A DNA stretch of 63,976 nt, the filler included, from Catajapyx aquilonaris (Eukaryota): NCBI GenBank assembly GCA_000934665.2. It is 2 parts of 2 records of this genome, joined end to end, with 100 filler letters (N's around TTAATTAATTAA, not from the genome) between each part and the next. Parts side by side here need not be neighbours in the genome. Positions count along the whole stretch, not along the records: positions 1 to 31,939 come from JYFJ02004477.1; 1 more part is not named here. One strand, given 5' to 3'. This document shows, in pieces, positions 411-30,788 of the stretch. The position numbers and the translations under genes were made by a program. Within the stretch, counting starts at the first letter, position 1. Every line of letters starts with the position of its first letter. The notes beneath the pieces are model-generated. The model was not told where the DNA came from. It did not search any database and worked only from the letters and a program-made list of their open reading frames with translations.

Positions 411-2194
411 CCACGAGGTACTTCCCATCATGATGGAAAATGGATTCAACCTTGCTTCTGAGTGCTACCAGGTTATTGATGGGCTGCCTCTCTCAGATGT
501 GTGCATGATGCGATTGAGCAATGGTGAAATGACCCCATTTGAGTCACTGTTTGAGATAAGAAAGTTCAGGGTGGCAGAGTATCGTTACGCTATGCCCATC
601 ACCCTTCTACTTGGATCTCATGCTCAACAGGAATGGCTCGATGCACTCAAGTCATACTTGGATGCAGGTACGGTGTTTAGCTGAATGAAATGTGTGCCAC
701 CTGAAACTATAATGAAATGCATGTCTGGATTTCATCAGGTTTGCAGATAAACCCATCCCGCCTGGATGTGTCCCCTCCTCTGTTTCAGTTCTTGCGTCAT
801 TATGACAGCAGGGGGCTCACAGATTCCCTCCATCTGTCCTTCCTCCGCCTTCTAGAGTCTAGAGGTCTAGACCCAGATTACACATCCAGTCACAACACCT
901 TTGGAGTACCAGATTCACTTGTGGCTGCCAGCGTAAGTGACCCCCGAACCCTGGCCTTCCTCCTGACATTCTCTAGGACCACACCAGAGCAGATTCTCGA
1001 CAGGTGCCTATGTAGATAACTAGATAATATAGAAGATAATAGTGTCTTAGTCATCTCCATTCATTCCATGCTTAGCACATCTACACAAATTCCAACAGGT
1101 GGACAGTGTTACTGATGGGCAGTGATGATGGTGGTGGGGTGAGGCTGGTGAGACATGATCTGCGCATGGTGTTTGCAGCACACATGAAGGCCACTTGCAG
1201 TGTGGCAGTGGAGTTTGGAGGGAATTGTTTGGGCCGAGATCTGGTGAGGAGGTTCCAAGAAGCAGTGGAGGCAGCAACGGAAGAGGCGGCAGACTGGGAG
1301 ACCATCCGTGAGCGTATGGGTGAGAATATTCTTTGTGTACTACCATTTGGGAGTTAATGTTCAACAATGGAATAGAAAATTTGGACACGCCTGAAAAAAA
1401 AGTGCATGTTGCAGAAGGTTTTGCATGATATTGGAAACTGCTTGTAACTTTTGTACTGTGAAACCTGTTTTTAGCTGCTCTTACATACAGTGGAAGCTAA
1501 TTCACTCTTGCAGAAGCGTCTGACATACCTGCGCAGTGAAGTAAGGTTTTCATAGCTGGCTGCTGATGCTATTGTACTGTACCATTGTGCATTTTGAGTG
1601 GTATGGACAAATATGCAGATGTCTAATCCATCCGATATTTAATGTTCACAGGTACGCTTGTTATAACCAGAACATGCTGTAGTCCGTTGAAGTGTGCCCC
1701 AACCTCTGACAGCTATAGAGAGTAAACCTATTGTGTCCTGTCATTATTGAACAGGGAAAGTGCATGTAGGTGATGAGGCAGCACCTATAGGCACAGAGTC
1801 ACGTCTAGTGAATTATTAGGATTTTCGACCTGCATATAACTGAAACCATGGATGCAGGGGGAATACTGTGCAAAAGTTTGCTGGTGATTATAAGTATGCA
1901 CTTAGGCCCGTAGCATGGTTATCCTGTGTAGATTTCCCACTTTGGTAACTGACGCAGAACTACTGGCCTGTAATGTTTATTTAGAGTGGTGATTATAATA
2001 TTGCCTTGGCAGATTGCGTCCCAACCCTGAAGGACTTGTGCAGATGGGGGATACGCCACATACTGTCCCACTCTCTCCGTCCAGGCCAGCTGGTGAGGGA
2101 CGCTGTGGATCAGTTTAAGGTCCCCGACACACTCAAGCCCTTTCTGTTGTATTCTGAAGTTGACCTGCTCGAGTTCCCCATAGGGAAGGGGTAG
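411..2194 (+). CDS. Ankyrin-like/SOCS-box (ASB-like) gene, array copy A, 5'-partial (last 4 exons)
   Basis: Exons 411-667, 739-1003, 1099-1319, 2013-2194 with GT-AG boundaries and consistent phases. Internal exon lengths (257, 265, 221) equal those of copies B and C. Last exon encodes a SOCS box (VPTLKDLCRWGIRHIL...FKVPDTLKPFLLY). AATAAA at 2308-2313. Confidence 0.85.
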
Positions 2195-2412
2195 AAGAAT
2201 GCACTATTTAGCTGAAGAAGTGCACTTTACAAAAATGTCAATGCACCTTTATAAAACGTGCTGTTTGATTTTCTTATGACTGGCTCTTGGGCCATGTGAC
2301 TTTGGAAAATAAAGGAGTGTGTTTTCTGCCAGTAATTTGTAACTGTAAGGTATGTCACTTTTTGAAATGAATTAATAGAGCTGCCCTATGCATTCCATTG
2401 ATTTTAAATGGA

Positions 2413-2429
2413 TTTGAAGTGCGCGGCAA
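2413..2429 (-). promoter_or_regulatory. CDE/CHR (DREAM-type) promoter element, copy 1
   Basis: TTTGAA-GTGC-GCGGC-AA; on the minus strand this reads SSSSS-N4-TTYRAA. The same arrangement recurs upstream of all four first exons. Confidence 0.55.
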
Positions 2430-2490
2430 CAAAATACTCTTTGTCTCTTTTGGTCTGGCTTCAGAGGGTTGGAAGGCCTAGCAGACGGCC

Positions 2491-4021
2491 ATGGAAGATC
2501 TGGTGGGATGGCGGCATGAAGTGGATGAAGACTTCTTGGAGGAATGGGTGAGCAGCCTGATGGAGCAGGAGGGAGGTGAGGGGGAGACCCACTGCCAGGA
2601 CAAGCGTCGCGTCCACCACATCGAACACTCCATCAGGAAGGAGGCGAAGCACTTCAGAGAGAGTATCGCTCGACTCAGAAAGCAATTCGCGTGGAGGACG
2701 CGTCGTCGGCCTCCTTCGACTTATTCCCAGGAGGATCGGGAGTGGTTGAGTCAGGAGGGCCAGCGCATTGGAGAGAAAATGGTCCGCATGCAGGGAGAGA
2801 TGAACTGCTTTCGGAAGAGGGTGACAGACTGGGGCCGACTCCTCTGGCAGGATGTCGACACATACCAGATAGAGGAGCGGCGCCTTGCTGTGGCCCTCCT
2901 GGACTCCCATGGCAACATAAGGGACCTCACGCCACTACAAACCATCGTCAATCAGGAGTTGGGATTGGCACAGGGAAATGAGGGGCAAGCAGGACCTTCT
3001 CGCAATGAGCACCAAGCCAATGTGGAGGTAATTACTTGATTGCAGTTTACTATATGCACTGTTCTCATGTGACTGTGGGGTTGGACATGGTAGTGCGTCA
3101 ACAATAATATTGGAGGATTAGATGGTCACAGGAAAATTTAAATGTGAAATACATTTAAATAAGCGGAATAACAATCTTGAGAACCGTGCCGGAAGATTTT
3201 GTTGAAATCGTTGTACTTTCCGAGATATAAATTAATACGTTTCTGCCACTTGCCACTTGCCATTCATATCGAATAACTCCCAAATTTACTTATTTCTCGA
3301 AAAGTATGACTATTTCAGCAAATTCATCTGGCATGCTTCTCAAGATTGTTATTCCGTATATTTCAACGTATTATGTAATTAAATCAGCCTCACAGTTGGC
3401 CGGCAGCACTCAAGTTCGAATTTTTACAGCGATCTTTTCGGAAATTAATATAGGAACTGCTACGGTAGTAAAATGGTTTCCAACACATTCATAGTGCTTT
3501 CCACGAACGGGTAAGCTGTTAGTATTTGTAAAATATCATGTTCGTATCTTCAAAGCAAGCGTAAGCAGAAAACTAGGTAATGGCGGGTATAGCTGGTATT
3601 GAGCAGTCGAGTTCTCATCACCTAGATTCGAGGTGGCTGGGGGCGAAAGAGTTAGGCATCTTTCATTGCCATAATAATTATTGTACTTGTTTTATTATTG
3701 AATGTTCCTACCATTCCCGGTTGTCATTTTAAAATTTAAAGCATGGCCAAGTGACTGTCATTTCTGGCAATTTCTTGGCCATCACATTATTGATAGGAAA
3801 TATGGAGTCTCGGTTTTGTACATGAGGAATAATCTCCACTAAAAGTTGTCACGTATGTGACAACAATCCTGGAAATATTTGCCTGTAAATGCTTCTGTTC
3901 ATTTATTTTATAGGAAGGGGCTGGTGATTCAGCATCATCTGGGAACAGCATGGATGGCGAAGGACTTGTGCAGCATGATGCCACAGGTGGACACATGGAA
4001 GAAGTGAATGTTCATGGATGA
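2491..4021 (+). CDS. Truncated array copy A' (variable coiled-coil-like exon 1 + exon 2 only; ~214 aa if expressed, otherwise pseudogene)
   Basis: Exon 2491-3027 (ATG, LDSHGNIRDLTP motif, phase-0 donor GAG|GTAATT). Exon-2 homologue starts at 3914, has lost its donor and reads to TGA at 4019-4021. AATAAA at 4085-4090, then sequence resembling the 3' flank of other copies. No ankyrin or SOCS exons. Confidence 0.6.
3165..3652 (-). mobile_element. Partial non-autonomous piggyBac-like element (same family as 24643-25395)
   Basis: Reverse-complement similarity to 24643-25135, including the terminus (…GGCTGGGGGCGAAAGAG vs CCCTTTCGACCCCAGCC…). Confidence 0.65.
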
Positions 4022-4699: not shown

Positions 4700-7600
4700 A
4701 TGGATCAGAAGGGAAGGATGGAGGATGAGGAGCGGAGGGAGAAGAAGAAGAGTTGCAATAAGGAGCAAGAGGACCGCTTCTGGGTAGAGGTCGTGCCCAT
4801 CCCAAAGGAATTCATCTGCACGAAGGAACAGCGGGGAGGGCCGCCTTCGAGAGGCCTTCTGCGGGCCTGCATAAGAATCACCTCGCAGCATGTAAGCACA
4901 CTGTGGATGCCAAAGCCTTGCCTTGCTGTGGTCCTTCTCGACACCCAGGGCAACATAAAGGACCTCACGCCAGTGCCAGTACCAATACCAACCAACGATC
5001 AGGAGTTGGAATTGGCACCGGGAAGTGGTGATGGGGAAGCAGGACCTTCTTGCGAGGAGGAAGAGGAGGATGAGGGACACGCCAGTGGGGAGGTAATTAG
5101 CTAATTGCAGTTAACCATTTCAGGGACATTTTTGTGTGGTTGGACAGGGTAGTGCAACAACAATAATCTGGGAGGATAGGAGATCAGAGGGCCTGTCATC
5201 AGACTCTACCTGATTGCAATTTGTGGAGCAATACTTATTTCACAGATATGACTAATGTCCCATGTTGGCCAATTGTGATCATTTTCACCCGATTTTGGAT
5301 TGTGCTTGGACACTTCTTAAACCATTTATTCCACCTGCAGTGACTTTGTAATTTCTTTTTGCATATACTATATACAGACTTTTTGAAAATGTACAGTGTG
5401 TTCCAAGCATATCGTCATTTGTAGTTGACCTGAAATTGTTTTTTTGTATACTTTGTTGTACCCTCATTGAGGTGCCCAATTTATGGCAACTGCGCTATAT
5501 TCGACCATCTGGTAATAATTGGGCACCTGGATCAGAGCGCAACGAGGTACACAAAAGTATACCTTGTGCATTGGACAAGAGTATTGGATGATAGAGTACT
5601 CCAATCCTTCACTTGATTATCGGGTAAGGCTGCAGACATACTTCTCTAAGCCTTTAAGAGATGCGACTTCACATATGCACCCATCCAGGGATCAGTATCT
5701 TGAGAGCCATATTCCTGAATCGTACCCCACAATATATGATTTTGATGGTTCCAATGTAGTTTTGACATTTTTATAAACAAGGAGTGGACGTAGAGGAAGG
5801 AAGACAATTCCTCTATATTTTCTGCTTGAGTTGTTGATGCAAGCATTTCTCTGATCCATCTAGCTCGCCTGGTGCCAATGTCCTGAAGTGCCACTAGAAA
5901 ATAGCTGCTCCAGTTGTAGCAAGGTTGCAACCTGCTGGATATGGGCAAGTCATACTTTTTTTCTCTCTACCCTACCAAAACAATTATTAAACATTTTAAA
6001 GATACTTTCATTTTCTTACAGAGTGTTGCAGATTTTTGTGTGTACATTTTTCGACACTATTAGTGATAGGCTAGTTATATTACCACTATTCATTTTGATG
6101 ATGCACTTTCCTTGGATGTCTATGTCTGTATAGTAAATTTACCACCAAGCACGATTGTGGTCCAAGTGAGCACAAAACAATGACTATATCTAGGGGGGAG
6201 TGTCTTGTGGGCAGGAGTAATTGCAATTTTGGCAACAACTCATGTGGTTGCAGTTACGTGATCTCTTGCATAATCTGAACTTCGGGTGTGTGTGTCCGGC
6301 AACAAGTCTAAAGCACTACCATGTAAATGTAATGTGCAAAGATGTTGGTGATAGCGAATTATTGTTCTTATCCGTTTCCTAATGTGACAACTTCAGGAAG
6401 TCAACATGTTAATTTTTTTACTCCATGCGTAAAGTGTTTGTTGACACTTAATATAGGAGTAGGGGTGACATTAGATGTGGCCATTAAGGCCATTTAAGGG
6501 CACAACCAACTGAGTGATGTAATATCTGGGCAATATTGGGTACGTACCTAATTTTGTACATTACAAAAGATGAGATGATTTAACCCTAATAAGATGGGTG
6601 GTTTTTCGCATTTTTGGATGGATCTGGAAAAAATTTGCTTGCTTGCTCACTTTCGGGACGAGACTTGAATACAAGAGTGAATAAGATCGTCTAGTGTCCA
6701 GGCTAGATCCTGAGGCCATCTATGTGACCCTCCTCTCATTACCATATGCAGTGGAAATTCTCAAATGCACAACAAGTTGGCGCGGGGGGTATGTTTCGCT
6801 CCTACTCCAAGTTTTTGTCACTCTGGCTGATTGCCAAAAAGTATTTCAGTATGTAGCCTTGGCACCCCTTTACAAAGCAGTACATAAGCACATGGCATGA
6901 ATTACGTCACAGGCCTGCTAGGTATGCAGCAGTGATAAACACACAACCCCTCACGAATTTAAACATCCCTTCAAGTCACAGCTACTGTATTTACTCGCAT
7001 ATAAGACGCACCCCGGTTTTGAGGCGAAAAATCGTGGAAAATCGGTTGTTGACTCATATAAGACGCACCCAGATTTATTGCCGTAGTTTGGGAACTGACC
7101 TCGAGCTGCCGGCAGCAACCTGGTGTGCAATGCATGTGCAATGCATGTGCGTGTGGAATCCATTAAAATCCAGTAAGGGGGGGGGGGGGGGGGGGGGGGA
7201 ANGGGGGAGTGGAAAATGGGACAATGCTACGCATCTGAAACGTATAGGTGGCAAGGTCACACCGGAATTGTGCACGTGTGGGGACGGGGAGAGCATATCA
7301 ATGGAAGTGAAGGAGAAACGCAGGTCGTACCATGCCGATTTCAAGAGGAAAGTGATCAACTGTGGTGACAGGACATCAAACCAACAAGCTTAAATTTTTC
7401 AATAAACGATTTTCACGATTTCTCATGGGTTTCACCCGTTGTGCCCTGCCGTATAAGACGCACACGCGTATAAGACGCACCCTACTTTTTGAGCTACAAA
7501 AATCGGAAAAAAAGTGTGTCTTATATGCGAGTAAATACGGTATTCAAAAACCACACGGGGCATGCGCCCCTCGAGCCATACAGAGGCCGGTGTTGAAGTG

Positions 7601-10600
7601 CCCAGATGCCTGCCAGACACTAATTGGCATTATTTTACGAACATTATTTATATTAAAACTATTGAATCAACTTTTGCACTAATTTTAGGGTGGAATCTCT
7701 TCAGGAGGTTTGGGGGCAACTATATATGCCGAAAATTTGCCGGTCAAGGTCGGATTTTTTTTTTCAGCGGCCGCAAAAAGATGATTTCATTCAAGTTAAT
7801 CTGGTTAATCCGGTTTATTTATACACGATTTTGTAGTCCAAAACTCCCGACTTTTTACGCGAGAGAAAATTTCAAAAGCCACACAGAAACCACGTTACAT
7901 AGTGGGAAAACGCTATAGTTTCGCCAGCAGAATTTTTTAAAGCCAGCGTCTCAGCATAGAGACGCCTGTCTTATTAGGGTTAACCACCACCATGCCCTAA
8001 TTTGACTTGGAATGACAAGTGTTACTTTTAGAGAACAATACGTAAGTATTGTCATTATCATAATAATTGCGTTACAAGTTACAAGTTACAAATTATAGGA
8101 TGCACCTACTATCTTCAGTTGAATTTTTTTAATTTTAAAATATTGCCAAGTGACTGCCAAGTCTAGATGCTTTTTAGCAATTACATGTAGTAATTGAGAG
8201 GAAATCTTCACTAAATTTTCAACATGTGACGACAATATTCTGGAAATTTGCCTTGAAATTTTTCCACTCATTCATGCTTTTAGAAAGGGGCTGGTGATTC
8301 AGCAACGTCGACGAACAGCATGGATGAGAATGGACTTATGAAGTGTGATGCCACAGTTGGACACCATGAAGGTATCTTGCATTGGTTTTCGTGGTAGCCT
8401 TTTCTTTCATGAGCTTACCAAATGACGATAAAATGATGTGGATTATGCCCTATTTTGTATTGGCCATCTTTCCACCTGACATTCTTCTCAATGCTAATGC
8501 TACACAGCTGTGTAGGTCGACAGAAGAAATGCATAACCTGCCAGTCTTTAAAACTGAGATATTGCCCACTTGTAGATCACTTGTAGAAAATCTAGTGTAT
8601 AAATTGGAGTAGGCCTACTCCTTTTCGGCCCAGTGACAGCAGTGCAAGAAAAACTGCGCATGTTCTTGTCACTGGTGTAAGATGTTCTTGTTCCCAAATG
8701 ATTTTTTTTTTAAAACACAGCATCCTGAATTGACACTGAGGCCATTAACTTTGAAAAAAATCAGGTTATCAGATTATTGGCACAAATAAGCGAGCAAGAA
8801 TGCTGAATTGCAAGACTTTAACTTTTTCTTCAAAAATATTAGGATACATCATCCTTCCACTGACCTGTCAATTTTCTCGGAAGCCGTACCTGAAGAGAAA
8901 TCACTCACAAGTTTTTAAAGTTGCTTTCATGGAAATATTAGGTCGGTTAACATGTTTTAATTTTAGGTGCTGCCTGTGAAGTTTTGATCGAGACCACCGA
9001 GGACCTTGGTGATGGTTTGCATGAAAATGATGAAGGCTGCAGTAAGTCAAGTGAGAAAGCTACGTGTGGCAACATCAGTCAACGGGCCAGCAGGTCCGTG
9101 GGATTGAAGTTTTTGGTTTTGTAAGAGAGAATGTCTGATAACATGCCATTTCAGAAAGAGGTCTTACCCAGAGGACTTGGAAAATGACAGCAAGCAATCA
9201 AGAATGAATGAGGGAACAGTCCATGGGAACAACCAAGATGACGACAAACCCGAGGGACCTTCCCTAGCCTGTAGCACACCGTAAGAAATAATAGCATGTT
9301 TATAATTTCTAGAAAGGATTTCTTCCAAGGTGGAATATGCAGTGTAACATGAGAATTTAAATTGGAAGTTGGTCCTCATAATACAGGTAGTACCCGTTTT
9401 ACGTCGTTAATTGGTTCCAGCAAAACATGGTGTAAAGTGAATCAGCGTAAAACGAGACAAAATTATAAGGCAAGTAAATGAGATAGGTTCCAAAATTTCC
9501 CAAAATTTTCCATAGACAGTACTGCTCAAAATATTAGGTACCATCTGTCATTGTCAAAAAATGAAAGTTAAGAATCTGCCAGGCTTCCAGCACCAGTGAC
9601 CGTTTCAGATGTGAAAAAATTGCAAATCTCAACTGTCAAACCCAAGTTTTCACTGCTTGCTGAACAACTCCATAAAATCTGAGTTTGCCTTTTTCATCTC
9701 ATATTATTATTATTATTAGGAACAACTTCCAATGAAAATTGTGATACATTGCAAAATACATCCTGGAAGTGATCTTTCAGATGTTAGTCACTGTGTTATG
9801 ATGAATAACAGTTCTGTTACTCATACATAGACTTGTTTGAAATGCAGGGCTGTTCCTGGAATGACACCGTTGATGAAAGCAGCAATTGCAGGTCACTTTC
9901 AAATGGTGGAAGTCTACGTTGAAGCTGGCGCAGACTGCAGCGTGTTGGATAAATTGTGGGAACATGTCCCTCTTAATTGGATAGTGGCAACCAAGAATCG
10001 AAGGCAGGTTATCCTAATGCAGTTCCAGATATTCCTTTACTTTATTAATCCCTGTATCGTAGGGCCTCTTATTGATTGTCTACTTTTTTGGAGGGAAGGT
10101 GGAAGGCTCTTCTGTTGTAGGCCCTTCCCCTTACGTTTGGGCTAATATAAACTAAGCAGCATCACAGTTACAAAACAGTCAAACAGTGAAATAAATTAGA
10201 GCAAAAAATATTGTCTGGGTAGCATTTGGTAAAAATATTGCATGAGATCCATGTGTTAAAAATGACCTGAAAACCTAGTTGCATCACAGATCATCAACAA
10301 CCAAACAACAACAATAATAAATAATGTCACAAAATTCATGTCACATTATGACTGCAGTGTGTATGTCCAGTGCTGATACAGTCCAGGACACGTCTATTGC
10401 CTGACACATCTCATAAGATTGTTCGTTATGTTAAAATTTCACGGCAACCTTTTCAATTAAAAGTGCAAGGCTGCAAGAAGGGAAGCACACCTACCAGGAT
10501 ATTTCATACGTTGGGTTTGGATTTTATTATCCGAGTAACAAGGCGTCTCAGAAAGTAGATACCACTACACAAAGTGATCCTCTGATTGCCGGCAAGATCT

Positions 10601-13003
10601 GTGAGCTATTTAGCAAAACGAAGGACTGAAGGAATTTGCCTTGATTCGTTGTGATGGAGTGCGCTGAACATGGGATATGTCCTACAGAAGAAGTTGCATA
10701 TTTTCACAGCCATGTAGGCTGGTACTCACACATTTTCCCCTGTAACATTATTTTAGAATAGTACCAGTTGCATTTAAAAAATTTGACAAGGATCAGAATT
10801 ATGGAAATCTACCCTGGTTATTGCGGCATGCCAGTCGACCTGGTTGTACACTGGCAAGCCGGTTTAAGTGAGGTAATACGGTACTTCCCTGGTGTATCAC
10901 TTTGGGGGAAGAAAAAAGGATTCAGAGTATAACAGAAACCTGTCCATTATACGACAGGTTGCCCCTATATTCAATCCACATTGTCATTGACATTGATATC
11001 TCTTTTCAGGTCGTGCTGTGTTCATGCTTGCTGTTTTTTTTTTTTGTTAATTTCAAAGATGGACACAATGTTACCTTTATAACCTACAGAACATTGCCGT
11101 ATCAGGTCCAGCAACTCTGTCAGATTGAAGATTGTGTAAATTCATGGAATGCTGGCTACTTCACACCTTATTTGGGCCACAAGAGGTCTCTCTCATGTGA
11201 CACGTGTTCGAAGTAATTATTCCTGTGAGCAGAGAGTTTTTACAGACTGAATTAGCTCACTGAATATGGAGCTTTTACAAACTTGTTTCATTCATTAAAT
11301 TCATTCATCAATCCCTGTGTGAAGAACAGTTACCCAGCTAGTAAAACTTGCTTGACACCAGTGTTTAATTTCCAGCCAACATGCAATTCCCATCATGATG
11401 GAAAATGGATTCAACATTGCTTCTGAGTGCTACCAGGTGATTGATGGGTTGCCTCACTCGGATGTGTGCATGATGCGATTGAGCAATGGTGAAATGACCC
11501 CATTTGAGTCACTGTTTGACCTAAGAATATTTAAGGTCGCAGAGTATCGTTATGCTATGCCCATCACCCTTCTACTGTGGTCTCATGGTGAAGAGGAACA
11601 GCTTGATGAACTAAAGTCATACTTGGACGCAGGTATGGTGTTTAACTGAATTAAATGTGTGCCACTTGGAACTATGATGTAATGCATGTCTGGATTTCAG
11701 GTTTGCAGATAAACCCAACCCGACTGGATGTGGTGCCTCCTCTGTCTCTCTTCTTGCGTCATTATGACAGCAGGGGGCTCACAGATTCCCTCCACCTGTC
11801 CATCCTGCGCCTTCTGCAGATTCGAGGTCTGGACCCAGACTACACGTCCAGCCACAACACCTTTGGAGTGCCAGATTCACTTGTGGCTGCCAGCCTAAGC
11901 GACCCCCGAACCCTGGCCTTCCTCCTGACGTTCTCTAGGACCACCCCAGAGCAGATTCTTGACAGGTGCATATATTGATAATAATTAGACACTAGATCAG
12001 TGGTTTCAGAGCTTTTTTGTCATGTAAAAACATGTAGCTGCAATTGAGCAAGGTTCCATAAGGATCACTATACTTGGATGGGAATAAGTGCACAGTTGTT
12101 CTGCATATGGGAGATGATTATACACTTTGCAGTTCCATGGTCTGGTCCTGCATATTGACCTCGTATGAAAGTAATTTGCTCATTTCCTGTCAGATCAACG
12201 CGATTTGCACATGATTTCCGTGCATCCTTAGCTTTCTGGTCCAAGGTTTCTATTATGAATCAGAATTTTTGTTCCCACAAATGTAGAGACCAGATGACAC
12301 TACACAATATGTTTCACTTCTCCCAAAATTGTGTCCTCGTAACCTTGTTTGTTAACCACTGATCTAGATAATGGTGTCTCGATATGGATTTCATGCATGC
12401 TAATCACATCTGCGCAAATTCCAACAGGTGGACAGTTGTGCTGATGGGCAGTGATGACGGTGGTGGCGTGAGGGTGGTGAGGCGGTGTCTGCGCAGACGA
12501 TTTTCAAACCACATGAAGGCCACTTGCAATGTGGCAGTAGCGTTGGGAGGCATTTGTTTGGGTCATGATCGGGTGAGGAGGTTCCAAGAAGCTGTGAAGG
12601 CAGCAACGAGAAGATATGCTGACTGGGAGGACCTCCATGAGCGCATGGGTGAGATTTCTGTAGCTTGCTACCACTTGCTATACATAGGTATGCTGGTACG
12701 AGTGGCTCGTATTTTGGTCACCCTGCCTAGCTCACCGGCTTCAGTAACTGATGCAGAACTAGCCCACGTTGTTTATTTAGACTCGTTTCTGAATGTGGTG
12801 ATTATTTTGCCGTTGCAGATCGCGAAGTCCCATCCCTGAAGCACTTGAGCCGGTGTGGAATACGCCAAGCACTGTCGCAGTCACTACGTCCAGGCCAGCT
12901 GGTTAAGAGTGCTTTGGATCAGTTGGAGGTTCCTGAGACACTCAAGCCCTTTCTGTTGTATTCTGATATTGACCTGCTCAAGTTCCCCATAGGAATGGGC
13001 TAG
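4700..13003 (+). CDS. Coiled-coil + ankyrin-like + SOCS-box (ASB-like) protein, array copy B, complete, ~605 aa
   Basis: Nine exons: 4700-5092, 8284-8371, 8967-9093, 9155-9280, 9848-10003, 11376-11632, 11701-11965, 12428-12648, 12819-13003. Total 1818 nt, in frame (intron 5 needs a GC donor). Ankyrin repeat GMTPLMKAAIAGHFQMVEVYVEAGAD; SOCS box VPSLKHLSRCGIRQAL...LEVPETLKPFLLY. Confidence 0.8.
6584..7979. mobile_element. Non-autonomous piggyBac-like element
   Basis: TTAA at 6580-6583 and 7980-7983 flanking TIRs CCCTAATAAGA / TCTTATTAGGG. Confidence 0.75.
6985..7540 (+). mobile_element. pogo/Tc2-type non-autonomous element nested in the piggyBac-like element
   Basis: TA target duplication and TIRs CTGTATTTACTCGCATATAAGAC / GTCTTATATGCGAGTAAATACGG. 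Repeated TATAAGACGCAC motifs. Relic peptide MEVKEKRRSYHADFKRKVI resembles the Brinker-type DNA-binding start of pogo transposases. Confidence 0.8.
11998..12361. mobile_element. hAT-type MITE in intron 7 of copy B
   Basis: Ends CAGTGGTT / AACCACTG, flanked by an imperfect 8-bp duplication CACTAGAT / ATCTAGAT. Absent from the equivalent intron of copy A. Confidence 0.65.
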
Positions 13004-17200: not shown

Positions 17201-20200
17201 GTTGTGCCTGGATTCCTCTGCCCCCATAGCAGGAATTGGGGCCTCTTTTTTATATGAATTTCAACCCGGAAAAGTGTATATTGGCCACCTGCACCTCCTA
17301 AGTGCAGTCTATTGGCACAACTACATTAGATCTATGCTTTGCTTCATCAAGTGTGTTGAAGGACAAGGCCAACGCGTGTTTGCAAGCTCGAATGACGCTA
17401 TGTTGGTTCTACTGTAGGCGTAGTAAAATTTTTATTGCATGTGTTCAGTGATAATTAATTATTTGTTGTTTTATCCAGCAATGGAGGACACGAGAGAGGA
17501 TAACTCATAACATGTCATTTCAGGAATTCTTTGAATTCAGATGGCCCTGAAGAATCGGGAAGTGAGAGCAAGGAATCAAGAGTGAATGAGGAAACAGTCA
17601 ATGCGAACAACCATGATGACAATGTATCGAAGGAACCTTTGCTTTGCATAAATAATGTGTAAGAAACAATAATAGCAATTTTGTATTTTATAGGTATTCA
17701 GATATGTTATCTGGTTGTGGAAAATAGCCTTCACCTGACTCATATAGAGTGACATGGTCTTTATTGTAATGCAGGGATGTTCCTGGTATGACACCGCTCA
17801 TGAACGCAGTGAGGGCTGGACACTATGATGTTGTGGAAGTGTTTGTGGAACCTGGAGCAGATTGCAGTGTGTTGGAAAAATTGTGGGAATACCTCCCACT
17901 GTACTGGACAGTGCTTACCAAGAATAACAGGTAGGTTATCCAAAAGGCTATCTCAGATGTTCCTGTCAACTTATGCATCATAGGCATACACTGACCGACA
18001 CCCAAGTTCACTGTATAATTTGTAAATTATTTTTTATTTCCAGCCAGGAAGTACTTCCCATCATGATGAAAAATGGTTTCAACCTTGCTTCTGAGTGCTA
18101 CCAGGTGATCAATGTGTTGGCTTTCTCGGATGTGTGCATGATGGGATTGAGCTACCATGACATCACCCCATTTGAATCACTGTTTTTGGAGAGAAAGTTC
18201 AGGGTGGCAGAGTATCGTTATGCTATGCCCATCACACTTCTACTTGGGTCCCATGGTCAACAGGAACAGCTTGATGCACTCAAGTCTTACTTGGATGCAG
18301 GTATGGAGTTTTGACTGAAGAGTTACGTGTCATCTGGCACTAATGAAATGCATATCTGGATTTCAGGTTTGCAGATAAACCCAACCCGACTGGATGTGTC
18401 CCCTCCTCTGTCGCTGTTCCTCTGGCATCATAATAGCCCTGGGCTCACAGATTCCCTCCATCTGTCCTTCCTCCGCCTGCTGGAGTCGAGAGGTCTAGAC
18501 CCAGACTACACTTCCAGCCACAACACCTTTGGAGTACCAGATTCACTTGTGGCTGCCAGCATGAGTGACCCCCGAACCCTGGCCTTCCTCCTGACGTTCT
18601 CTAGGACCACACCACAGCAGATTCTCGACAGGTGCCTATTGATAACTAGATAATCTAGATCAGGGGTGCTCAATCTTTTGGCAGTCACAGGCCACACAAT
18701 AAGCAAGTCTTATACAAGTCTTATTTAAAAAGTATACAGGGTGAAGGGAAACTCCTGGACAATCACCAGGTAGACTGATAGTACTTGCAAAACTAATACA
18801 GGGATGTGCAATTAGTTTTGGACTCCTTTGCGTAGTTAATGCGTATGGCTCCATCGAAGTTTCTTGCCGTCACATCCGTTTCGCCAGTGTCTAAGAAGCA
18901 AAAGTCAGTTCGAGGGCCTCTGGTCCCTTGCCTCAACCCCCTAACACATCGTCCCTGTGCAAAAAGCGATCAAATCCCGCCAGAATAAGAATCTCGGCAC
19001 GACACCCGTGCACTTTGTCTTTTTTATCTCATATTCCACCATCTGGCCCTCTACACTTTAAGGATGCCGTATGCATTAACTATGCAATGGAGCCAAAAAC
19101 TAATTGCACATCCCTATATTAGTTTTGCGACTACTATAAGTTTACCTGGCGATTGTCCACGAGTTTCTCTTCACCCTGTACGCCATGTTTATGCTTAAAT
19201 TCAGGTGCAACAAAAAGACTGCAATTTTAACATTACTTGAAAATTAATTTTATTTCTAAGTTTGCACTTGCAGAGCCCTAATTCCATCTTCAGATCATCC
19301 AACTCTGATTCTGGCTTGCCTTCTGCTGTTATCAACTCTTGGATTTGTTTATTTTGTGCCATTATGTAACAATAATTTTTTCGGGGAGATTCCCTTTCGC
19401 AGGCCATGAGGAAAGGTGTGACAGGTCATGGTTTGAGAACTCCTGATCTAGATAATAACGCCTTTTTATTGATTCCATGCTTGATAAGCACAAACTGCAC
19501 AAATTTCAACAGGTGGACAGATGTACTGATGGGCAATGATGATGGTGGTCATGTGAAGGTCGTGAGGGAAGATCATCGCACTGCGTTTACAGCCCATATG
19601 AAGGCCACTCGCAGAGTGGCAGTGAAGTTGGGAGGGTGTCTCTTGGGCTATGATCATGTGCGGAGGTTCCAAGAAGCAGTGGATGCAGCAACAGAAACAT
19701 TGGTTGACTGGGAGGACCTCCATGAGCCCATGGGTGAGAATTTTTTTGTTTACCATCATTTGTGGGTTTCTATTTTAACTGCTGTGGTGGGCCTTGTGTT
19801 TGTCCCGTGACCCCGAAGAGCTAAGTCGGTGGTAGCTTCGTAAACAGGCAGGGTCTCCCAAGTTGGACAATTCTTTGGAGTAGAAGACAGACAATGGGGG
19901 ATACCACTCAGGGGACAGTGACTCCATTATTGATGTTTAAAGCTGTATTACAGTGTGGTGTAAAATTTTTAAAAGTATTCCGAGTTACGTAAAATTTACT
20001 TGTACGTACATATTGTTGCGGAACAATCCACTTACTTAAGTCAGGGACTTGCTCTAGTTAACTTGAAATTAATGCGATATTTTGTGCACAATACAATGGC
20101 TGTAAAAATATTGACCCTTCTTCATATACTTTATATGTGCAATGTTGTTCTGCAAAGTTTTCTTAACTGAAGAGGTTATCTTGCACAACTGGGGTGTTTA

Positions 20201-20428
20201 TTTCAACTGGTTTCTAAACACAATGATCATATTGCCTTGACAGATCGCATCCCAACCCTGAAGCACCTGTGCAGGTGGGAAATACGCCGAGCACTGTCAC
20301 AGTCTCGCCGTCAAGACCTGCTGATTAAGAGTGTTTTGGATCAGTTGGAAGTTCCTGAGACCATGAAGAGTTTTCTTTTGTATTCCGACGTCGACCTGCT
20401 CGAATTCCCCAGGGGACGGGAGGACTAG
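14231..20428 (+). CDS. Coiled-coil + ankyrin-like + SOCS-box (ASB-like) protein, array copy C, complete, ~672 aa
   Basis: Nine exons: 14231-14815, 15892-15979, 16820-16946, 17524-17658, 17775-17930, 18044-18300, 18367-18631, 19513-19733, 20244-20428. Total 2019 nt, all GT-AG, in frame. Ankyrin GMTPLMNAVRAGHYDVVEVFVEPGAD; SOCS box IPTLKHLCRWEIRRAL...LEVPETMKSFLLY. Confidence 0.85.
15322..15580 (+). mobile_element. tRNA-derived SINE
   Basis: Pol III A box TGGCCGAGATGG and B box GGTTCTAATCC, followed by a non-tRNA body and A-rich end. An inverted relative lies at ~20780-21046. Confidence 0.7.
18661..19445. mobile_element. hAT-type non-autonomous element in intron 7 of copy C
   Basis: TIRs CAGGGGTGCTCAA / TTGAGAACTCCTG with a perfect 8-bp TSD ATCTAGAT (18653-18660, 19446-19453). 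Confidence 0.85.
18737..19178. mobile_element. Tc1/mariner-type MITE nested in the hAT element
   Basis: TA flanks and roughly 90-100 bp imperfect TIRs (CAGGGTGAAG…AAACTAATACAGGGATGTGCAATTAG / CTAATTGCACATCCCTATATTAGTTT…CTTCACCCTG). Confidence 0.85.
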
Positions 20429-21373: not shown

Positions 21374-21374
<1 letters not shown>

Positions 21375-21419
<45 letters not shown>

Positions 21420-21890: not shown

Positions 21891-21921
<31 letters not shown>

Positions 21922-24537: not shown

Positions 24538-24640
24538 ATTGCGTCCCAACCTTGAAGCACTTGTGTAGGTGGAGAATACGCCAAGCACTTCCTGCTTTAT
24601 TCAGACGTTGACGTGCAGAAATTCCCTATCAGACATGGTT
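24538..24640 (+). pseudogene. Orphan, internally deleted SOCS-box exon of the array
   Basis: Intact acceptor, then CVPTLKHLCRWRIRQAL, followed by a deletion/frameshift. Preceded by ~230 nt homologous to intron 8 of copy C and interrupted at a TTAA by a piggyBac-like element. Confidence 0.8.
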
Positions 24641-24642
24641 AA

Positions 24643-25395
24643 CCCTTTCGACCCCAGCCACCTAGAATCTGGGTGATGAGAACTCGACAGCGCAGTACCT
24701 GCTATACCCGCCATCGCCTGGTTTTCCACTTACACGAGCGCTGAAGATATGAAGAATATATTTACCAATAATAACAGCTATACTTACCTGTTCATGGAAA
24801 ACACTATGGATGTGTTGAAAACAATCTTCCTCCGATAGAAGTCTCTAAATTAATTTCCAAACATTTCGCTGTCAAAGCGCGAAATTAGAGTAGGCCTACT
24901 GCCAGCCAACCGTTCGCTGATTTAATTATGAAATACCTTAAAATATATGGAATAACAATCTTGGGAAGCAAGCCAAATGAATTTACTGAAATCGTCATGC
25001 TTTTCGAGAAATAAGTAAATTTGGGAGTCATCCGAAGTGACCAGCAAGTCGCAGAACTTTATTAATATGTTTCTCGGAAAGTACAACGATTTCAACAAAG
25101 TCTTCTGACATGGTTCTCAAGATTGTTATTCGGTATATTGCATTTCATTATTAAATCAGCTTAAAAGTTGCCCAGTAGTTGAACTTGAATTTTCATCTTT
25201 TACAGCGATCTTTTTGGAAATTAATTTATAGGACTTCTATGCGAGTAAAATTGTTTCCGTTATTCCAAAATCATGATGTTATTATTTGTAGAATATCTTG
25301 TCCTTATTTTCATGTGGAACAGAAGCGAAAAGAATCTATGCGATGGAGGTACAGCTGGTATCTGGCAGTGGAGTTCTCATCACCTACATTATAGA
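24643..25395. mobile_element. Non-autonomous piggyBac-like element with long imperfect inverted ends
   Basis: TTAA at 24639-24642 then CCCTTTCG…GGTGATGAGAACTC. Inverted match GAGTTCTCATCACC near 25370-25384. Right terminus is degraded. Confidence 0.65.
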
Positions 25396-26692
25396 TATGA
25401 CCGCTTGTATATTATGATTTATGGGATGTTTCCAGTGACTAGTGAATATTAATTTTGTCTTATGGAGTACGTTGGATTGTACCAAAGAGATTATTATCAG
25501 CAGTCTTATGGACTCGAGGCAGGTGGTGTGTTTTAGTACTACTTTTAGTTCTATTTATCATGAGGATTTTCCAACTGGCCGTGCCTATTCTGCCCTTTGT
25601 CCTGGATTAGCCAATGACGACTGATGGACTCTTAAAGTTGGTTGCAAATGTGGCGAACTTGGTGGATCTAGGGGGCGGAGACCAAGTTCCTGCCGACACA
25701 CTTCTGAAAATTTCCAGTCTGCTAGACACCTCACGACTATCAGGAGACATTTCCTAGCAACCAGTACTCGAACTAGTACAGTACTAGTGGACCAGGTCAA
25801 GACTATGGCGAGTTTCCTGTCCCCTCTTATCAGATACAATGTCAACCAGGAGGGCAGTTTTCGAGTGATTAAAAAGAAACATCATTCTCGCTAGTACCCA
25901 GAGACGATGATACTTCTTCCACTTCACCTGGCATTGGGAATGGTTGTCCTCGCTTCCATGCAAAGTGACTTTTTTCTGTCTAATTCATATTTCTGCTGAT
26001 CAGGTAGGAAAACATGTCCATTTTTTATATGCAAATCTATTAATAAGTAAAAATATACGGTATTATTGTACACATTGTGAGTCCTCTGTATTTGCTCAAA
26101 TTAATGCAGCATCACAAAATATTCAAACCACTGTTGGTTGAATAAAAACACTGGACAGGAAATAATTTCATTGTTTTTTAAAAGTAGATATATTCAAATC
26201 AACCTCCCCCAAACATTGCATCCATTCCATGACTCTATCCATCATTCCATTGTTCTGACTTTTTCAGCTGACACCATAGCGTGTCACCATGTCACTGTTC
26301 CAACAGCAAAGTGTATTAATATATGAACATGATATAATCATGTAATTTAAATTAAAGACATTTTCAGCTACAAATCTCTTATTGCATGTACCCCAGGGAC
26401 CTCCTGTGATGTACAGAAGTAATAGTGATGATGATGATGTAAATTTTAATTACGTGGTGCGGAACAATCAACTTGCGTAAGTTGGGGACTTGCTGTAGTT
26501 AAATTTAAATTGAATCTTCATTTTGTGCACAATGTTTGGTTGGTGAAATAGTGACCTCCTTTATTTACTTCTGGCTGCGCAGTTATATATTCTGCAAATT
26601 TTCTTGACTGAAGAGGTCATTTGCACATAATATAGGCTTGTTTTACTAGTTTATGTCAACTGCTTGCTCAAGATGAAATGTTTTCTTGACTG

Positions 26693-26876
26693 ATTGCATC
26701 CCAACCCTGAAGCACTTGTGCAGATGGGGGATACGCCAAGCACTGTCACAGTCTCTCGGTCCTGGCCAACTTGTTACGGATCAGTGTTCCTGAGACGATC
26801 AATTGAGCTTTCTTTTGTACTCTGATGTTGACTATTACTAAAGTTCCCCATGGGACAGGAGGATCTCCAGAGTCTA
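26693..26876 (+). pseudogene. Second orphan, decayed SOCS-box exon
   Basis: CIPTLKHLCRWGIRQALSQSLGPGQLV then a frameshift and stop. Acceptor mutated (CAG to CTG). Preceded by intron-8-like sequence from ~26440. Confidence 0.8.
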
Positions 26877-27339: not shown

Positions 27340-27498
27340 GTACAGTATGCGTGCAGTAGAGTGACTGATGGGGAGGGCTGCAGCTTCTCTCTCTCTCCGC
27401 CACAACTCAAAAGCCACACTTCTTCCATTCCTGTGTGTGCTGTACACTTGTTTCATTCCAGCACAGCTCCAGTGGGTCGTCTCAGTCGTGTGCTGGAC

Positions 27499-30400
27499 AT
27501 GGATCAGGTGGGAGGGAGCCAGGAGGAGGAGGATCGGAGGGAGGAAGAGGAGACTCGCAGGCTGCGAGAAGAAGGGAACGACATTCGCTGCCACGACTGC
27601 AGACGCTTGACCTACATCCATCTCACTGCCGAGAAGGAGAGGCATCGATTACATCAGCGTGACAGGCGGGTCAAGGAAGCCTGTGACTGCCTCTCCCAGA
27701 AGGTGTGTCGAGTGCCCCCTCCATCCAAGGAGGAGGTGGAATGCTTGTCCCTTGAGATCTCACCCCTTGAAAAGGAGCTGGCGTGCGTAAGGAAAGATGC
27801 TGACCATTTATATAAGGAGGCAAGCAAGTGGAGTGTACTGCTCCAGCAGGATGCCGCCACACTCGAGCTAGAGAAGCGTCGCCTGTGCGTGGCCCTCCTG
27901 GACTCCCACGGCAACATAAGGGACCTCACACCACTACCAACTGAGATTCAGAAGTTCGGATTGGCACAGGGAAATGAGGATGGGCAAGCTGGACCTTCTC
28001 GCAAGGAGGATGAGGGACAAGCCAATGTGGAGGTAGTTACAATTAAATGCAGTTAGCCATTTCAGGGAAATTGTTGTCAAGTGTAAAGCAGTGCTTCCCA
28101 AACTGTGGGTCGCGAACATTATGCAGTTGACTCCGGATATATTTTTTATTCCTAATATAACAGATTCATTTGCACCTCACCCTGGCTGTAACAGACCATC
28201 TTTTTGGCCCCTTGGCAGGAAAATATGCTGTTCCTGATTATTCAACTTCATTTCCCATGTGCAGGAAGGCATGGAATACTGAGGGGGGGGGATTTTTACA
28301 TCTGTCACTGATCCAAGTTACTCAAAATCACACTTTTTCTGGCATATTTGGCAACAAGGAGACGGAATAAGAATATTACGGATTTTTTTGGTCCTGTCTA
28401 ATTTGCTGGTGAGCTAATTTGGCATTTTTTGTGGATAGTTTCATTTTTAAAAATGCAGTAGTGTGTGTATTATAACCATATGGAAAGCGTAAAGCTTGTA
28501 TATTCTCTGCAAAAGGGGCCATTTACCTATAACAGACCTCAGTTATGACATGCTTTTCCCACTGTCCCTTGAAGTCTGTGATATCCGGAGTCAACTGCAT
28601 TTGGGGTCGTGAGGGAGGGTAACAAATTAATATTATTTTAACAAAATGATTCTGCCTCTACAAAAATATACAGTAAAACTTCTATAAGTCAAACTTCCCT
28701 AAGTCGAATGAAATGATGAGCTTGGTTGGTCACAATGTAAATAATAATAGTGAAATAAACTTCCCTAACTCGAATTTTTATAACTAGAAGTGCTGGCAGG
28801 GCCGTACGATGGGATATCAATGCATTTTCAGTCGAAGTCGAAGTCCATGTTGGCGAGTATGGAAAATTTTCTCATTTCTCAGCCAAAGGGTCGAGAGTTG
28901 GTCACATGTACAGTACCCTGCATTAATGGCCATGCACAGACACCGCCATCTGGCGGGAACGAGCGGAAGTAGATGAAGTTGGTTGCGTCCAAAATACTTG
29001 GGACAGCTCAAGGCTTCTCACGAGTCCGCTCAAGGCTGCTCAAGACATCGCAGTGGATTAACAGGCATTCACGTGGTACGTGTAATAACTGGTTCACAAC
29101 CTCAATACATTGATAGGAATCGCAATGGCCTTATAATATTCATCCCACAGATACAGATGTGATCCGCTGTGATCCATCTTTGTAGCAAGCGTTTGAATCA
29201 ACCGCGATATCTTGAGCTGTCCAAGTATTTTGGACGCAGTCCACCGGCGCCTAATTCCGCTCGTTCTTGGACAGGTGGCGATGTCTGTGCATGGCCATTA
29301 ATGCAGGGTACTGTACAGAAGGCTCAATTTCCTGATCTCCGTCTACCAGACATACCTAAAGAAGAGTTTGACTCGATTGTGACAATTGAATCCTTGAGAA
29401 TCTAAGAGTAGGCAAATGTCCATAACGGAGATTTTTTTTACAACAAAACGAGGAACATTGTAAGTGTGATACTTGGCGGTTATTTTTAAGTTTTTATCAC
29501 CTTTCGTCGCTGGATATAAAGGTAGGCTTCCTTATAGAGTTATGTGCTTTAAAGAATCCAAACTTCTCTAACTAGAATCTTCTATAACTCGAAGTTTCTT
29601 GCAATTGGCTGCATTTTCATTGCCAGTTTGTTCTGTAAATTATTTGTTCATGTCTGAAATTTGTGTGCGCAAGTCTGCATCTATGTAAGGCCAGTCTAGA
29701 CAAGAGTCCAGAGGTAAGTCAGGGGCTGCCAGTTTATGTCACAACAAAATTGAAGAGATTTCCTTTAACGTAGCCATTCATTCATTCATTCATTCTAGAA
29801 AAGGACAGCGGATGCAGCAACGTCTGGGGATGACTTGGATGGATATGGATTGATGCAGCATCATGTCACAGATGGACACCATGAAGGTATCTTTGTATGG
29901 TTTTGATAGTAGTCGTTTCATGCAAGGGCTCATGGAGAGTGCACAGCTATCTGACATTATGATGTACATACCCGTTTCTGCCTTTGCCATTCTCCCTCCT
30001 GATATCCTTCTCATTGGGGCACCGCTGTGGGAGTAGATGGATGAAGTTTGTATCCTACCAACATTCAAAACGAAGCATTTTGAATTGAAACATTTTGTTA
30101 TGATGTTTGCTAACATTATAAGAAAAGTTAATGAAGTTGGATAACTCTGTATGTTCCTTCTGTGGAAACCATCAGGTCTATCAGTAGGCTTTTATTTTAG
30201 GTGCTGCAAATGATGCTTTGATGGAGAGCACCAACAAGTTTGGTGATGGTTTGAAGAAAAGTTATGCTGGAAGCAGTAACTCAAGTGAGAATGGGATGAG
30301 TGGCAACAACAGTCAGGCAACCAGGTCTTTGTGGGATTGAAAATTTGGGTTTTACAAGGAAGAATGTCTGATAGCATGTTGTTTTAGGAAGAGGTCTTTG

Positions 30401-30788
30401 AGTTCTGATAACCCTGAGGACTCGGGAACGATCAGCAAGCAATCCAGAATGAATGAGGAAGCAGAAGACGGGATCAGCTGTAATGAGAACAAACCCAAAG
30501 GACCTAACTTTTGCCTTAGCATTCCGTAAGAAACAAGAGCCATTTGATATTTCATAGAAATTTAGATATAAGTCATCTGGTTGTTAAAATTAGCCTTCAT
30601 CTGAGTAACATGGACTTCTTGAAAAAATGCAGGGATGTTCCTGGTATGACACCGCTGATGCAGGCTGTGAGGACTGGTCACTATGAAGTTGTGGAAGTGT
30701 TTGTGGAACCTGGAGCAGACATCAGTGTGTTGGAGGAATTGTGGGAATACCTCCCTCTCTACTGGACAGTGGTGACCGAGAATAACAG
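27499..30788 (+). CDS. Array copy E, 3'-partial (first 5 coding exons; remainder lost at the assembly gap)
   Basis: Exons 27499-28032, 29799-29886, 30201-30324, 30388-30525, 30633-30788, in frame and homologous to copies B and C. Ankyrin GMTPLMQAVRTGHYEVVEVFVEPGAD. Confidence 0.8.
28121..28600. mobile_element. MITE with perfect 20-bp TIR, inserted in a hAT-like relic
   Basis: ATGCAGTTGACTCCGGATAT / ATATCCGGAGTCAACTGCAT. Removing it rejoins CAGTGCTTCCCAAACTGTGGGTCGCG…TGGGGTCG. Superfamily not determined. Confidence 0.8.
28911..29313. mobile_element. Tc1/mariner-type MITE nested in a Tigger-like relic (~28671-29600)
   Basis: TA flanks and TIRs CAGTACCCTGCATTAATGGCCATGCACAGACA / TGTCTGTGCATGGCCATTAATGCAGGGTACTG, plus an inner inverted segment (GCGTCCAAAATACTTGG). 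Confidence 0.85.

What the first reader, a model, noticed from the sequence alone, without database searches (positions are those of the whole stretch)
411..30788. Tandem birth-and-death array of an unusual coiled-coil/ankyrin/SOCS-box E3-adaptor gene
Seen: the four seemingly stand-alone charged ORFs (2491, 4700, 14231, 27499) each end in a phase-0 donor (GAG|GTAATT or GAG|GTAGTT), and each is followed by a homologous phase-0 exon (3914, 8284, 15892, 29799). They are therefore first exons of one 9-exon gene, present as 2 complete, 2 edge-truncated and 1 short copy plus 2 relic exons in 31 kb. Known: SOCS boxes recruit Elongin B/C and usually Cullin-5; typical ASB proteins are ankyrin + SOCS without this N-terminal module. 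Inference: a lineage-specific, rapidly turning-over family of ubiquitin-ligase substrate adaptors, analogous to nematode/plant F-box expansions, which may be undescribed.
Basis: partly seen in the sequence, partly recalled or inferred. Interest (0 to 1): 0.8.

Follow-up and report, generated by a model that had tools for sequence, protein, structure and literature searches.

The report
Ankyrin-SOCS adaptors with swapped front end
An arthropod-type genome carries about a dozen duplicated genes for protein-degradation adaptors in which the usual front ankyrin repeats were replaced by a new, fast-changing helical hairpin on a flexible tether, which may be a new way of picking targets, but expression and targets are unshown.

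Summary
Two open nine-exon models (605 and 672 aa), two partial copies, one short copy and two relic exons are in the window. The four charged ORFs are first coding exons. All 12 genome-wide matches end in a phase-0 donor at the same site. Two copies that lack exons 3-4 carry a second exon shifted to the phase that keeps the frame. New here: the genome holds a compact 537-aa ordinary ankyrin-SOCS (ASB) paralogue that shares exons 5-9 but has ankyrin exons in front. The roughly 10-12 derived copies form one clade next to it. So the family arose by replacing N-terminal ankyrin repeats with a helical hairpin plus an acidic linker. The hairpin shows site-level positive selection (p about 6e-5), clustered on one helix face. 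The SOCS box passes Pfam, and Cullin-5 is in the genome. Splicing, expression, Elongin/Cul5 binding, substrates and taxonomic range are untested. One window copy has lost half the hairpin, and the expansion is far smaller than nematode F-box families. The scan had not noted this family on other DNA. Verdict: new variant of a known kind.

The parts
411..2194 (+). Copy A, exons 6-9 (411-667, 739-1003, 1099-1319, 2013-2194); 5' part lies off the contig start
   Evidence: Open 307-aa model, canonical splice sites; SOCS_box 29.5 bits; AATAAA 114 nt after stop
2491..4021 (+). Short copy S: hairpin exon 2491-3027 plus read-through exon 3914-4021 (214 aa, no ankyrin or SOCS box); its exon 1 is also in frame with exons 2-9 of copy B
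   Evidence: S exon 1 + B exons 2-9 gives an open 653-aa frame; AATAAA 64 nt after stop, no homologous upstream donor found
4700..5092 (+). Copy B first coding exon (131 aa); first hairpin helix deleted, conserved motif kept
8284..9280 (+). Copy B linker exons 2-4 (8284-8371, 8967-9093, 9155-9280), acidic and low in complexity
9848..10003 (+). Copy B exon 5, one canonical ankyrin repeat, GC donor
   Evidence: Pfam Ank 26 bits, cut-off 21.1; GC donor shared with paralogues
11376..12648 (+). Copy B exons 6-8 (11376-11632, 11701-11965, 12428-12648), degenerate ankyrin-like and helical region
   Evidence: No Pfam hit; 54-77% identical to the ordinary paralogue; fold comparison of a paralogue inconclusive
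12819..13003 (+). Copy B exon 9, SOCS box and stop
   Evidence: SOCS_box 34.9 bits; BC-box pattern met, Cul5 box LEVP
14231..14815 (+). Copy C first coding exon (195 aa): acidic helix, helical hairpin (about residues 53-134), conserved motif, acidic tail
   Evidence: Model with helices 53-83 and 92-134; heptad pattern and selected sites
15892..17658 (+). Copy C linker exons 2-4 (15892-15979, 16820-16946, 17524-17658)
17775..19733 (+). Copy C exons 5-8 (17775-17930 ankyrin, 18044-18300, 18367-18631, 19513-19733)
20244..20428 (+). Copy C exon 9, SOCS box and stop
   Evidence: SOCS_box 40.1 bits; AATAAA 130 nt after stop
24538..24640 (+). Relic exon 9 with an internal deletion through the SOCS box
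26692..26860 (+). Relic exon 9, acceptor lost, stop inside
27499..30788 (+). Copy D, exons 1-5 (27499-28032, 29799-29886, 30201-30324, 30388-30525, 30633-30788); contig ends at 31939
   Evidence: Open 346-aa partial model; Ank 29.5 bits; contig limit

Best explanation
These are chimeric, ASB-derived substrate receptors for an Elongin B/C-Cullin-5 ubiquitin ligase. An ancestral ankyrin-SOCS gene like the one on contig C104 lost its N-terminal ankyrin exons and gained new exons 1-4, spliced onto the old exon-5 acceptor. The chimera then multiplied to about 10-12 copies, and some copies decayed. The retained half (one canonical ankyrin repeat, a degenerate helical repeat region, the SOCS box) docks on Elongin B/C-Cul5. 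The new helical hairpin, on a 56-158-residue acidic tether, is the target-binding arm, and one face of it diversifies between copies to take different or changing targets. Shown by sequence: gene structure, origin by exon replacement, clade, copy turnover, selection pattern. Inferred: splicing in vivo, ligase assembly, and that the hairpin binds the substrate.
For: Paralogue C104: 537-aa open model with N-terminal ankyrin exons; exons 5-9 have the same phases and the same GC donor. Its N-terminal exons match no derived locus. Derived clade of 10 sequences has support 99.1/100 with C104 as sister; more distant paralogues on C2812, C1213, C1588 and C2921 have ankyrin exons in front. Exon 1 has a phase-0 GT donor in 12 of 12 matches. 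Complete open models also exist on C3057 (663 aa) and C1254 (557 aa). In the two copies without exons 3-4, exon 2 is 101 and 56 nt and ends in phase 2, matching exon 5, whereas it is 88 or 91 nt and phase 1 in the 8 other spliced copies modelled. No AATAAA within 600 nt after any of the 4 window exon-1 donors, but one within 130 nt after the stop of A, S, B and C. Eleven exon-1 frames stay open; 0 of 2000 neutral simulations kept all 11 open. dN/dS is 0.23-0.33 for exons 5, 7 and 9 against 0.71 for exon 1. M2a beats M1a on exon 1 (p 6e-5 on 124 stable columns, 18% of sites at omega about 2.6; 0 of 40 null simulations reach it). Eight of the 10 top sites lie on helix 2 and cluster on one face (p about 0.01); no recombination signal in exon 1 (p 0.6). 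BC-box pattern met in 10 of 11 and the fourth-position proline of the Cul5 box in 11 of 11 (definitions from PMC3355856 passages). Cullin-5 is in the genome. ASB proteins use the ankyrin domain for substrates (PMC3779351 passages; PMC11263391 abstract), so its loss calls for another binding surface.
Against: No junction, protein or binding data exist. The second-position proline of the Cul5 box (LP-phi-P) is Glu or Lys in 11 of 11 sequences, including the ordinary paralogue. Copy B has an intact back half but has lost half the hairpin, so the hairpin is not needed for a copy to persist. Exon 8 is also fast-evolving (dN/dS 0.63) and exons 6-9 give a weaker selection signal (p 0.002) with signs of recombination (p 0.013), so the back half may still bind substrates. 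About half of the exon-1 sites fit neutrality. The selection test is my own implementation (fixed relative branch lengths, naive empirical Bayes, MAFFT modes only). The C1254 exon-2 donor was chosen by eye knowing the phase needed. Exon-1 copies were found by protein search, which favours open frames. Some copies are 91-94% identical over long blocks and may be alleles.
Confidence: 0.5

Rival explanations
1. The gene structure is as described, but the hairpin and linker serve to localise or oligomerise the protein, while the residual ankyrin-like region still binds substrates. Fast evolution reflects loose constraint plus a tissue-specific (for example germline) role.
For: Linker exons evolve near neutrally (0.78 and 0.91). 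A KR-x(10-14)-K-x-x-R motif, like a bipartite nuclear localisation signal (consensus recalled), starts linker exon 4 in 6 of 7 models that have it. Exon 8 is variable. Copy B persists without a full hairpin.
Against: Selected sites concentrate on one helix face while the hydrophobic core and the opposite flank are conserved, which fits a binding surface under pressure to change better than a passive scaffold.
Confidence: 0.27
2. The proteins are decoys or suppressors rather than ordinary receptors: the hairpin mimics or baits a partner (a selfish-element, pathogen or germline protein) and drags it to the ligase, or SOCS-less forms such as copy S sequester it.
For: A SOCS-less 214-aa hairpin copy with a poly(A) signal exists. 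ASB7 binds helical degrons in its ankyrin groove (PMC11263391 abstract), so helices can act as degron mimics. Young F-box genes act in hybrid incompatibility (PMC11573670, search listing only).
Against: No partner is identified and no source of the hairpin was found in the genome or among viral structures.
Confidence: 0.12
3. Copy S is not a separate short gene: its exon 1 is an alternative first exon of copy B, giving variable hairpins on shared constant exons. This is compatible with the best explanation.
For: S exon 1 joined to B exons 2-9 is open (653 aa), and B's own exon 1 lacks half the hairpin.
Against: All exon-1 donors and exon-2 acceptors are phase 0, so the open frame is automatic. 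S has its own nearer exon 2 with a stop and AATAAA. No second such arrangement was seen in the fetched contigs.
Confidence: 0.15
4. The array is mostly drift: recently duplicated, weakly expressed or dying copies with little function.
For: Relic exons, broken copies on C5865 and C1991, exon-5 fragments on C13845 and C4167; overall dN/dS of 0.5-0.75.
Against: Copies differ by dS 0.3-0.9 yet keep open frames, splice sites and purifying selection on exons 5, 7 and 9.
Confidence: 0.07
5. The charged ORFs are separate single-exon genes that only sit next to ASB fragments.
For: No transcript evidence joins them.
Against: 12 of 12 conserved phase-0 donors, colinear order on several contigs, phase-matched exon 2 in the two short-linker copies, and no other start exon for the ASB half.
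Confidence: 0.04

Closest known systems
ASB family (ankyrin repeat and SOCS box proteins, human ASB1-18; CRL5 substrate receptors)
   Same: Ankyrin repeat followed by a C-terminal SOCS box with BC box and Cul5-box-like motif; a lengthened H1-H2 loop in the SOCS box, as reported for ASB9 (PMC3779351 passages); direct descent from an ordinary ASB gene in the same genome.
   Different: The N-terminal ankyrin array, the usual substrate-binding part, is replaced by a helical hairpin and acidic linker. One canonical repeat remains. Multi-copy and fast-evolving rather than conserved. Cul5 box reads L(E/K)-phi-P.
Unstable F-box families of Caenorhabditis (birth-death, tandem, positively selected substrate ends)
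   Same: Tandem duplication, copy loss, conserved ligase-docking end and diversifying opposite end (PMC8665587 passages).
   Different: SOCS box and Cul5 instead of F-box and Cul1; about a dozen copies instead of tens to over a thousand; the variable part is a newly gained helical hairpin.
F-box A2 genes that captured a transposase HTH domain (PMC12062965, abstract)
   Same: A cullin adaptor family gained a new domain that is proposed to widen its substrate range.
   Different: The hairpin here has no identified transposon, viral or host donor; different cullin system and animal group.
In-genome paralogue on contig C104 (537 aa, L001 7654-4965, minus strand)
   Same: Exons 5-9 with the same phases and GC donor, 49-77% protein identity per exon; sister to the derived clade.
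   Different: Short introns, ankyrin exons in front, no hairpin or linker exons; one copy found.

Membership tests
ASB (ankyrin-SOCS box) | C-terminal SOCS box | tested here: met
   PF07525 above cut-off in 3 of 3 window exon-9 copies
ASB (ankyrin-SOCS box) | BC box (S/T/P)LxxxC/S/AxxxPhi | tested here: met
   10 of 11 sequences; C3057a has Arg at position 1 (pattern from PMC3355856)
ASB (ankyrin-SOCS box) | Cul5 box LP-phi-P | tested here: inconclusive
   Fourth-position Pro, which the review singles out, is present in 11 of 11; second-position Pro is absent in 11 of 11
ASB (ankyrin-SOCS box) | N-terminal multi-repeat ankyrin domain | tested here: not met
   One Pfam-detectable repeat; the paralogue's N-terminal ankyrin exons match no derived locus. 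Met for the C104 paralogue. The derived genes are filed as ASB-derived, not as canonical ASB.
ASB (ankyrin-SOCS box) | Exons 6-8 continue an ankyrin-type solenoid | tested here: inconclusive
   Model of the exon 7-8 region of paralogue C1213 (pLDDT 85) aligns end to end with many ankyrin proteins including ASB7 at Z 5.6-6.4, rmsd about 4 A, below the trust level; weak Ank hit (E 0.001, under cut-off) in the C964 homologue
ASB (ankyrin-SOCS box) | Descent from an ASB gene | tested here: met
   Shared exon phases and GC donor; tree support 100/100 for C104 plus the derived clade
CRL5 substrate receptor | Binds Elongin B/C and Cul5 and ubiquitylates a substrate | not testable with these tools
   A Cullin-5 gene is present (C5442, E 3e-81 to Cullin-5 chains); Elongin B and C were not searched; binding needs experiment
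Birth-death adaptor expansion (F-box-like) | Tandem copies with decayed members | tested here: met
Birth-death adaptor expansion (F-box-like) | Positive selection on the end opposite the cullin-docking box | tested here: met
   with the caveats stated
Birth-death adaptor expansion (F-box-like) | No one-to-one orthologues in related species | not testable with these tools
   No related genome is held; library searches found no relative of any part
Coiled-coil helical hairpin (exon 1) | Two long amphipathic helices with heptad periodicity | tested here: met
   Helices 53-83 and 92-134 at pLDDT 77-98; d positions 97% hydrophobic in both; nearest solved structures are hairpins, none significant. 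Not met in copy B.

The most novel reading that the evidence does not exclude
An arthropod lineage built a new class of Cullin-5 receptor by grafting an orphan helical hairpin onto a truncated ASB, and uses one hypervariable face of that hairpin as an evolving recognition surface against pathogen or selfish-element proteins: a SOCS-box counterpart of the nematode and plant F-box arms race, possibly with alternative first exons supplying variable hairpins.
Probability: 0.25. Interest if true: 0.78.

Novelty: new variant of a known kind. Interest (0 to 1): 0.52.

Why it matters
If expression and function hold, this is a clean natural case of a ubiquitin-ligase receptor swapping its substrate-binding domain, with the unswapped paralogue still in the genome as a control. 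It gives a short list of hairpin positions to mutate or swap, and extends conflict-type evolution of cullin adaptors from F-box proteins to the SOCS-box/Cul5 system. A small hairpin that retargets CRL5 would also interest people who engineer protein degraders. Without RNA or binding data it remains a well-supported gene-structure and evolution result in one fragmented assembly.

Tried and rejected
Expression: no RNA holder listed; one run of unknown kind held 0.26 of the words. No reads were laid, so splicing is untested. Homologue searches gave nothing usable: exon 6 against longer proteins, 0 of 31 candidates; exon-7 profile against 1.84 billion representatives, 2 hits, both repeat artefacts; exon-1 alignment against proteins of 72-342 aa, 0 of 3425 (longer proteins not searched); exon 7-8 profile against longer proteins, 0 of 8000; ESM Atlas, no usable hit for exon 1 and only generic arthropod SOCS-box clusters for the paralogue's C-terminal part. 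These blanks mainly show that the lineage is not sampled. Exon 1: no Pfam family shared by more than 2 of 11 members; no significant fold match in PDB or viral libraries. No donor locus for exons 1-4: every genome match examined was a family copy or relic (one weak E 0.11 match on C773 was not supported). Exons 1-4 as decayed ankyrin exons was rejected: no similarity and different phases. Hairpin homodimer prediction: no verdict. Foldseek and sequence search of the exon 7-8 region: no significant match. Literature: five searches on SOCS box or ASB with ankyrin plus expansion, arthropod duplication, exon shuffling or positive selection listed no paper on such a family; the library lacks most subscription papers and I opened no supplements. 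Earlier scan notes: none on this family.


Full report
Observation. The left 31 kb of the window is a direct tandem array: self-BLAST shows repeated blocks at 70-88% identity. Exon models built from splice sites give two complete open frames, B (4700-13003, 605 aa) and C (14231-20428, 672 aa), a 3' part A, a 5' part D and a short copy S, all with AG acceptors and matching phases. Pfam finds an ankyrin repeat in exon 5 and a SOCS box in exon 9 above the cut-offs in 3 of 3 copies each, and nothing credible in exon 1 or exons 6-8. Two decayed exon-9 pieces lie between C and D, with a Mutator-like transposase in front of them. D stops at a contig end, not at the window edge.

Genome-wide family. 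The window's genome (286 Mb, 20,583 contigs) gave 12 matches for exon 1, one of them partial, 11 for exon 6, and 12 close plus 16 distant matches for exon 7. Counts are lower bounds, and some pairs are 91-94% identical over long blocks and could be alleles, although a three-way set (C780, C4256, C8884) cannot all be alleles of one diploid locus. Complete open models were also built on C3057 (663 aa) and C1254 (557 aa). Broken members include C5865, a frameshifted exon-1 relic on C1991 and exon-5 fragments on C13845 and C4167. I estimate 10-12 derived copies.

Is exon 1 spliced to the rest? No transcript data were obtained, so the case is comparative. All 12 exon-1 matches end in a phase-0 GT donor at the same position. 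Exon order is colinear on C3057, C1254, C880, C4778 and C4681. The two copies that lack exons 3-4 have a second exon of 101 nt (C3057b, homologous donor kept) and 56 nt (C1254, a different donor, chosen by eye), both ending in phase 2 as exon 5 requires; in the 8 other spliced copies modelled it is 88 or 91 nt and phase 1. Poly(A) signals follow the stops of A, S, B and C but none of the four window exon-1 donors. Eleven exon-1 frames are open although neutral substitution along the same tree left on average 0.06 of 11 open (the search favours open frames). I put the chimeric structure at about 0.9-0.95.

Origin. Contig C104 holds a compact paralogue with an open 537-aa model in ten coding exons. 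Its last five exons match exons 5-9 in phase, including a GC donor found at 9 of 10 exon-5 ends examined, but upstream it has ankyrin exons and no hairpin exon. Those exons match no derived locus. In a tree of exons 5, 7, 8 and 9, ten derived sequences form a clade (99.1/100) with C104 as sister (100/100) against five distant paralogues. For five of the ten (A, C780, C4256, C8884, C6019) the 5' end is off the contig, so their front end is inferred. Distant paralogues on C2812, C1213, C1588 and C2921 carry N-terminal ankyrin exons, so the ankyrin front is ancestral and exons 1-4 are derived. No donor for exons 1-4 was found.

Anatomy of the new module. An AlphaFold2 model of copy-C exon 1 (11-sequence alignment, mean pLDDT 69) has two confident helices, 53-83 and 92-134, a low-confidence strand pair at the conserved motif and a disordered tail. 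Both helices show heptad hydrophobicity. The nearest solved structures are generic helical hairpins with no significant score. The linker to the ankyrin repeat is 56-158 residues, acidic and rich in Gly, Ser and Asn. Copy B lacks the first helix.

Selection. Pairwise dN/dS is 0.23, 0.41, 0.33, 0.63 and 0.25 for exons 5-9 and 0.71, 0.78 and 0.91 for exons 1-3. In my own codon-model code, M2a beats M1a on exon 1 with all 11 copies (p 2e-7) and after dropping copy B and keeping only 124 gap-free columns stable across four MAFFT modes (p 6e-5; two 8-sequence subsets p 1e-4 and 2e-3; 0 of 40 null simulations). Eight of the ten sites with posterior above 0.8 lie on helix 2 and cluster on one face (p about 0.01), mostly at e and b heptad positions, while d and g positions are the least variable. 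A homoplasy test shows no recombination in exon 1 (p 0.6) but some in exons 6-9 (p 0.013), which weakens the smaller signal there.

Ligase end. The BC-box pattern given in PMC3355856 (passages) is met in 10 of 11 sequences. The Cul5 box keeps the fourth-position proline in 11 of 11 but never the second. Cullin-5 is present in the genome. ASB proteins use their ankyrin domain for substrates (PMC3779351 passages; PMC11263391 abstract). Whether exons 6-8 continue an ankyrin solenoid is inconclusive.

Mechanism. Most likely (0.5), the back half docks on Elongin B/C-Cul5 and the tethered hairpin, with its variable face, has taken over target binding. Rivals: the hairpin as a localisation or scaffold element (0.27), a decoy or suppressor role (0.12), drift (0.07), separate genes (0.04). 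Separately, the S exon may be an alternative first exon of B (0.15).

Novelty. The parts list is that of an ASB, and the evolutionary pattern resembles unstable nematode F-box genes (PMC8665587 passages) and F-box genes that captured a new domain (PMC12062965 abstract). Five literature searches listed no ASB-derived family with this replacement. The arthropod assignment rests on unchecked earlier scan notes and the taxa of the nearest Atlas clusters. I rate it a new variant of a known kind, interest 0.52: the structure and origin are well supported, while expression, targets and range are open.

Noticed in passing
window 22658-24264 +: Mutator-like transposase (PF20700, 120.7 and 72 bits) in pieces, inserted between copy C and the relic exons; no clear terminal inverted repeats found.
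   Followed up: partly
window about 53780-63500 -: Multi-exon gene with 11 YxxM motifs in 3 of 7 ORFs scanned; looks like an insulin-receptor-substrate gene (recalled; the 3 ORFs scanned against Pfam gave no hit).
   Followed up: partly
window 31940-32039: Two N runs mark a contig join; the array does not continue to the right of it.
   Followed up: yes
contigs C2812, C1213, C652, C1074, C1588, C1986, C964, C2921, C8067, C7963: A wider, older family of at least ten ASB-like paralogues, several as tandem pairs, with different intron positions in the exon 6-8 region.
   Followed up: partly
window 9155-9205 and 30388-30450; C3057, C4778, C880, C210: KR-x(10-14)-K-x-x-R motif, like a bipartite nuclear localisation signal (consensus recalled), at the start of linker exon 4 in 6 of 7 models; lost in copy C.
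   Followed up: partly
window 3136-3654 and 24640-25390: Non-coding repeat present in both orientations (69-79% identity), probably a small transposon.
   Followed up: no
L001 8600-9950 - (contig C104): Gene with a weak SHIPPO (sperm-tail PG-rich) repeat hit directly upstream of the ordinary ASB paralogue.
   Followed up: no
contigs C5953, C1153, C126, C4, C309, C5442, C1720, C482, C441: Cullin matches on nine contigs; C5442 is Cullin-5 and C1720 looks like a diverged extra cullin.
   Followed up: partly
L057 2397-3110 - (contig C4256): A separate ankyrin-repeat ORF (238 aa, Ank_2 221 bits) lies 3 kb downstream of a family copy.
   Followed up: no
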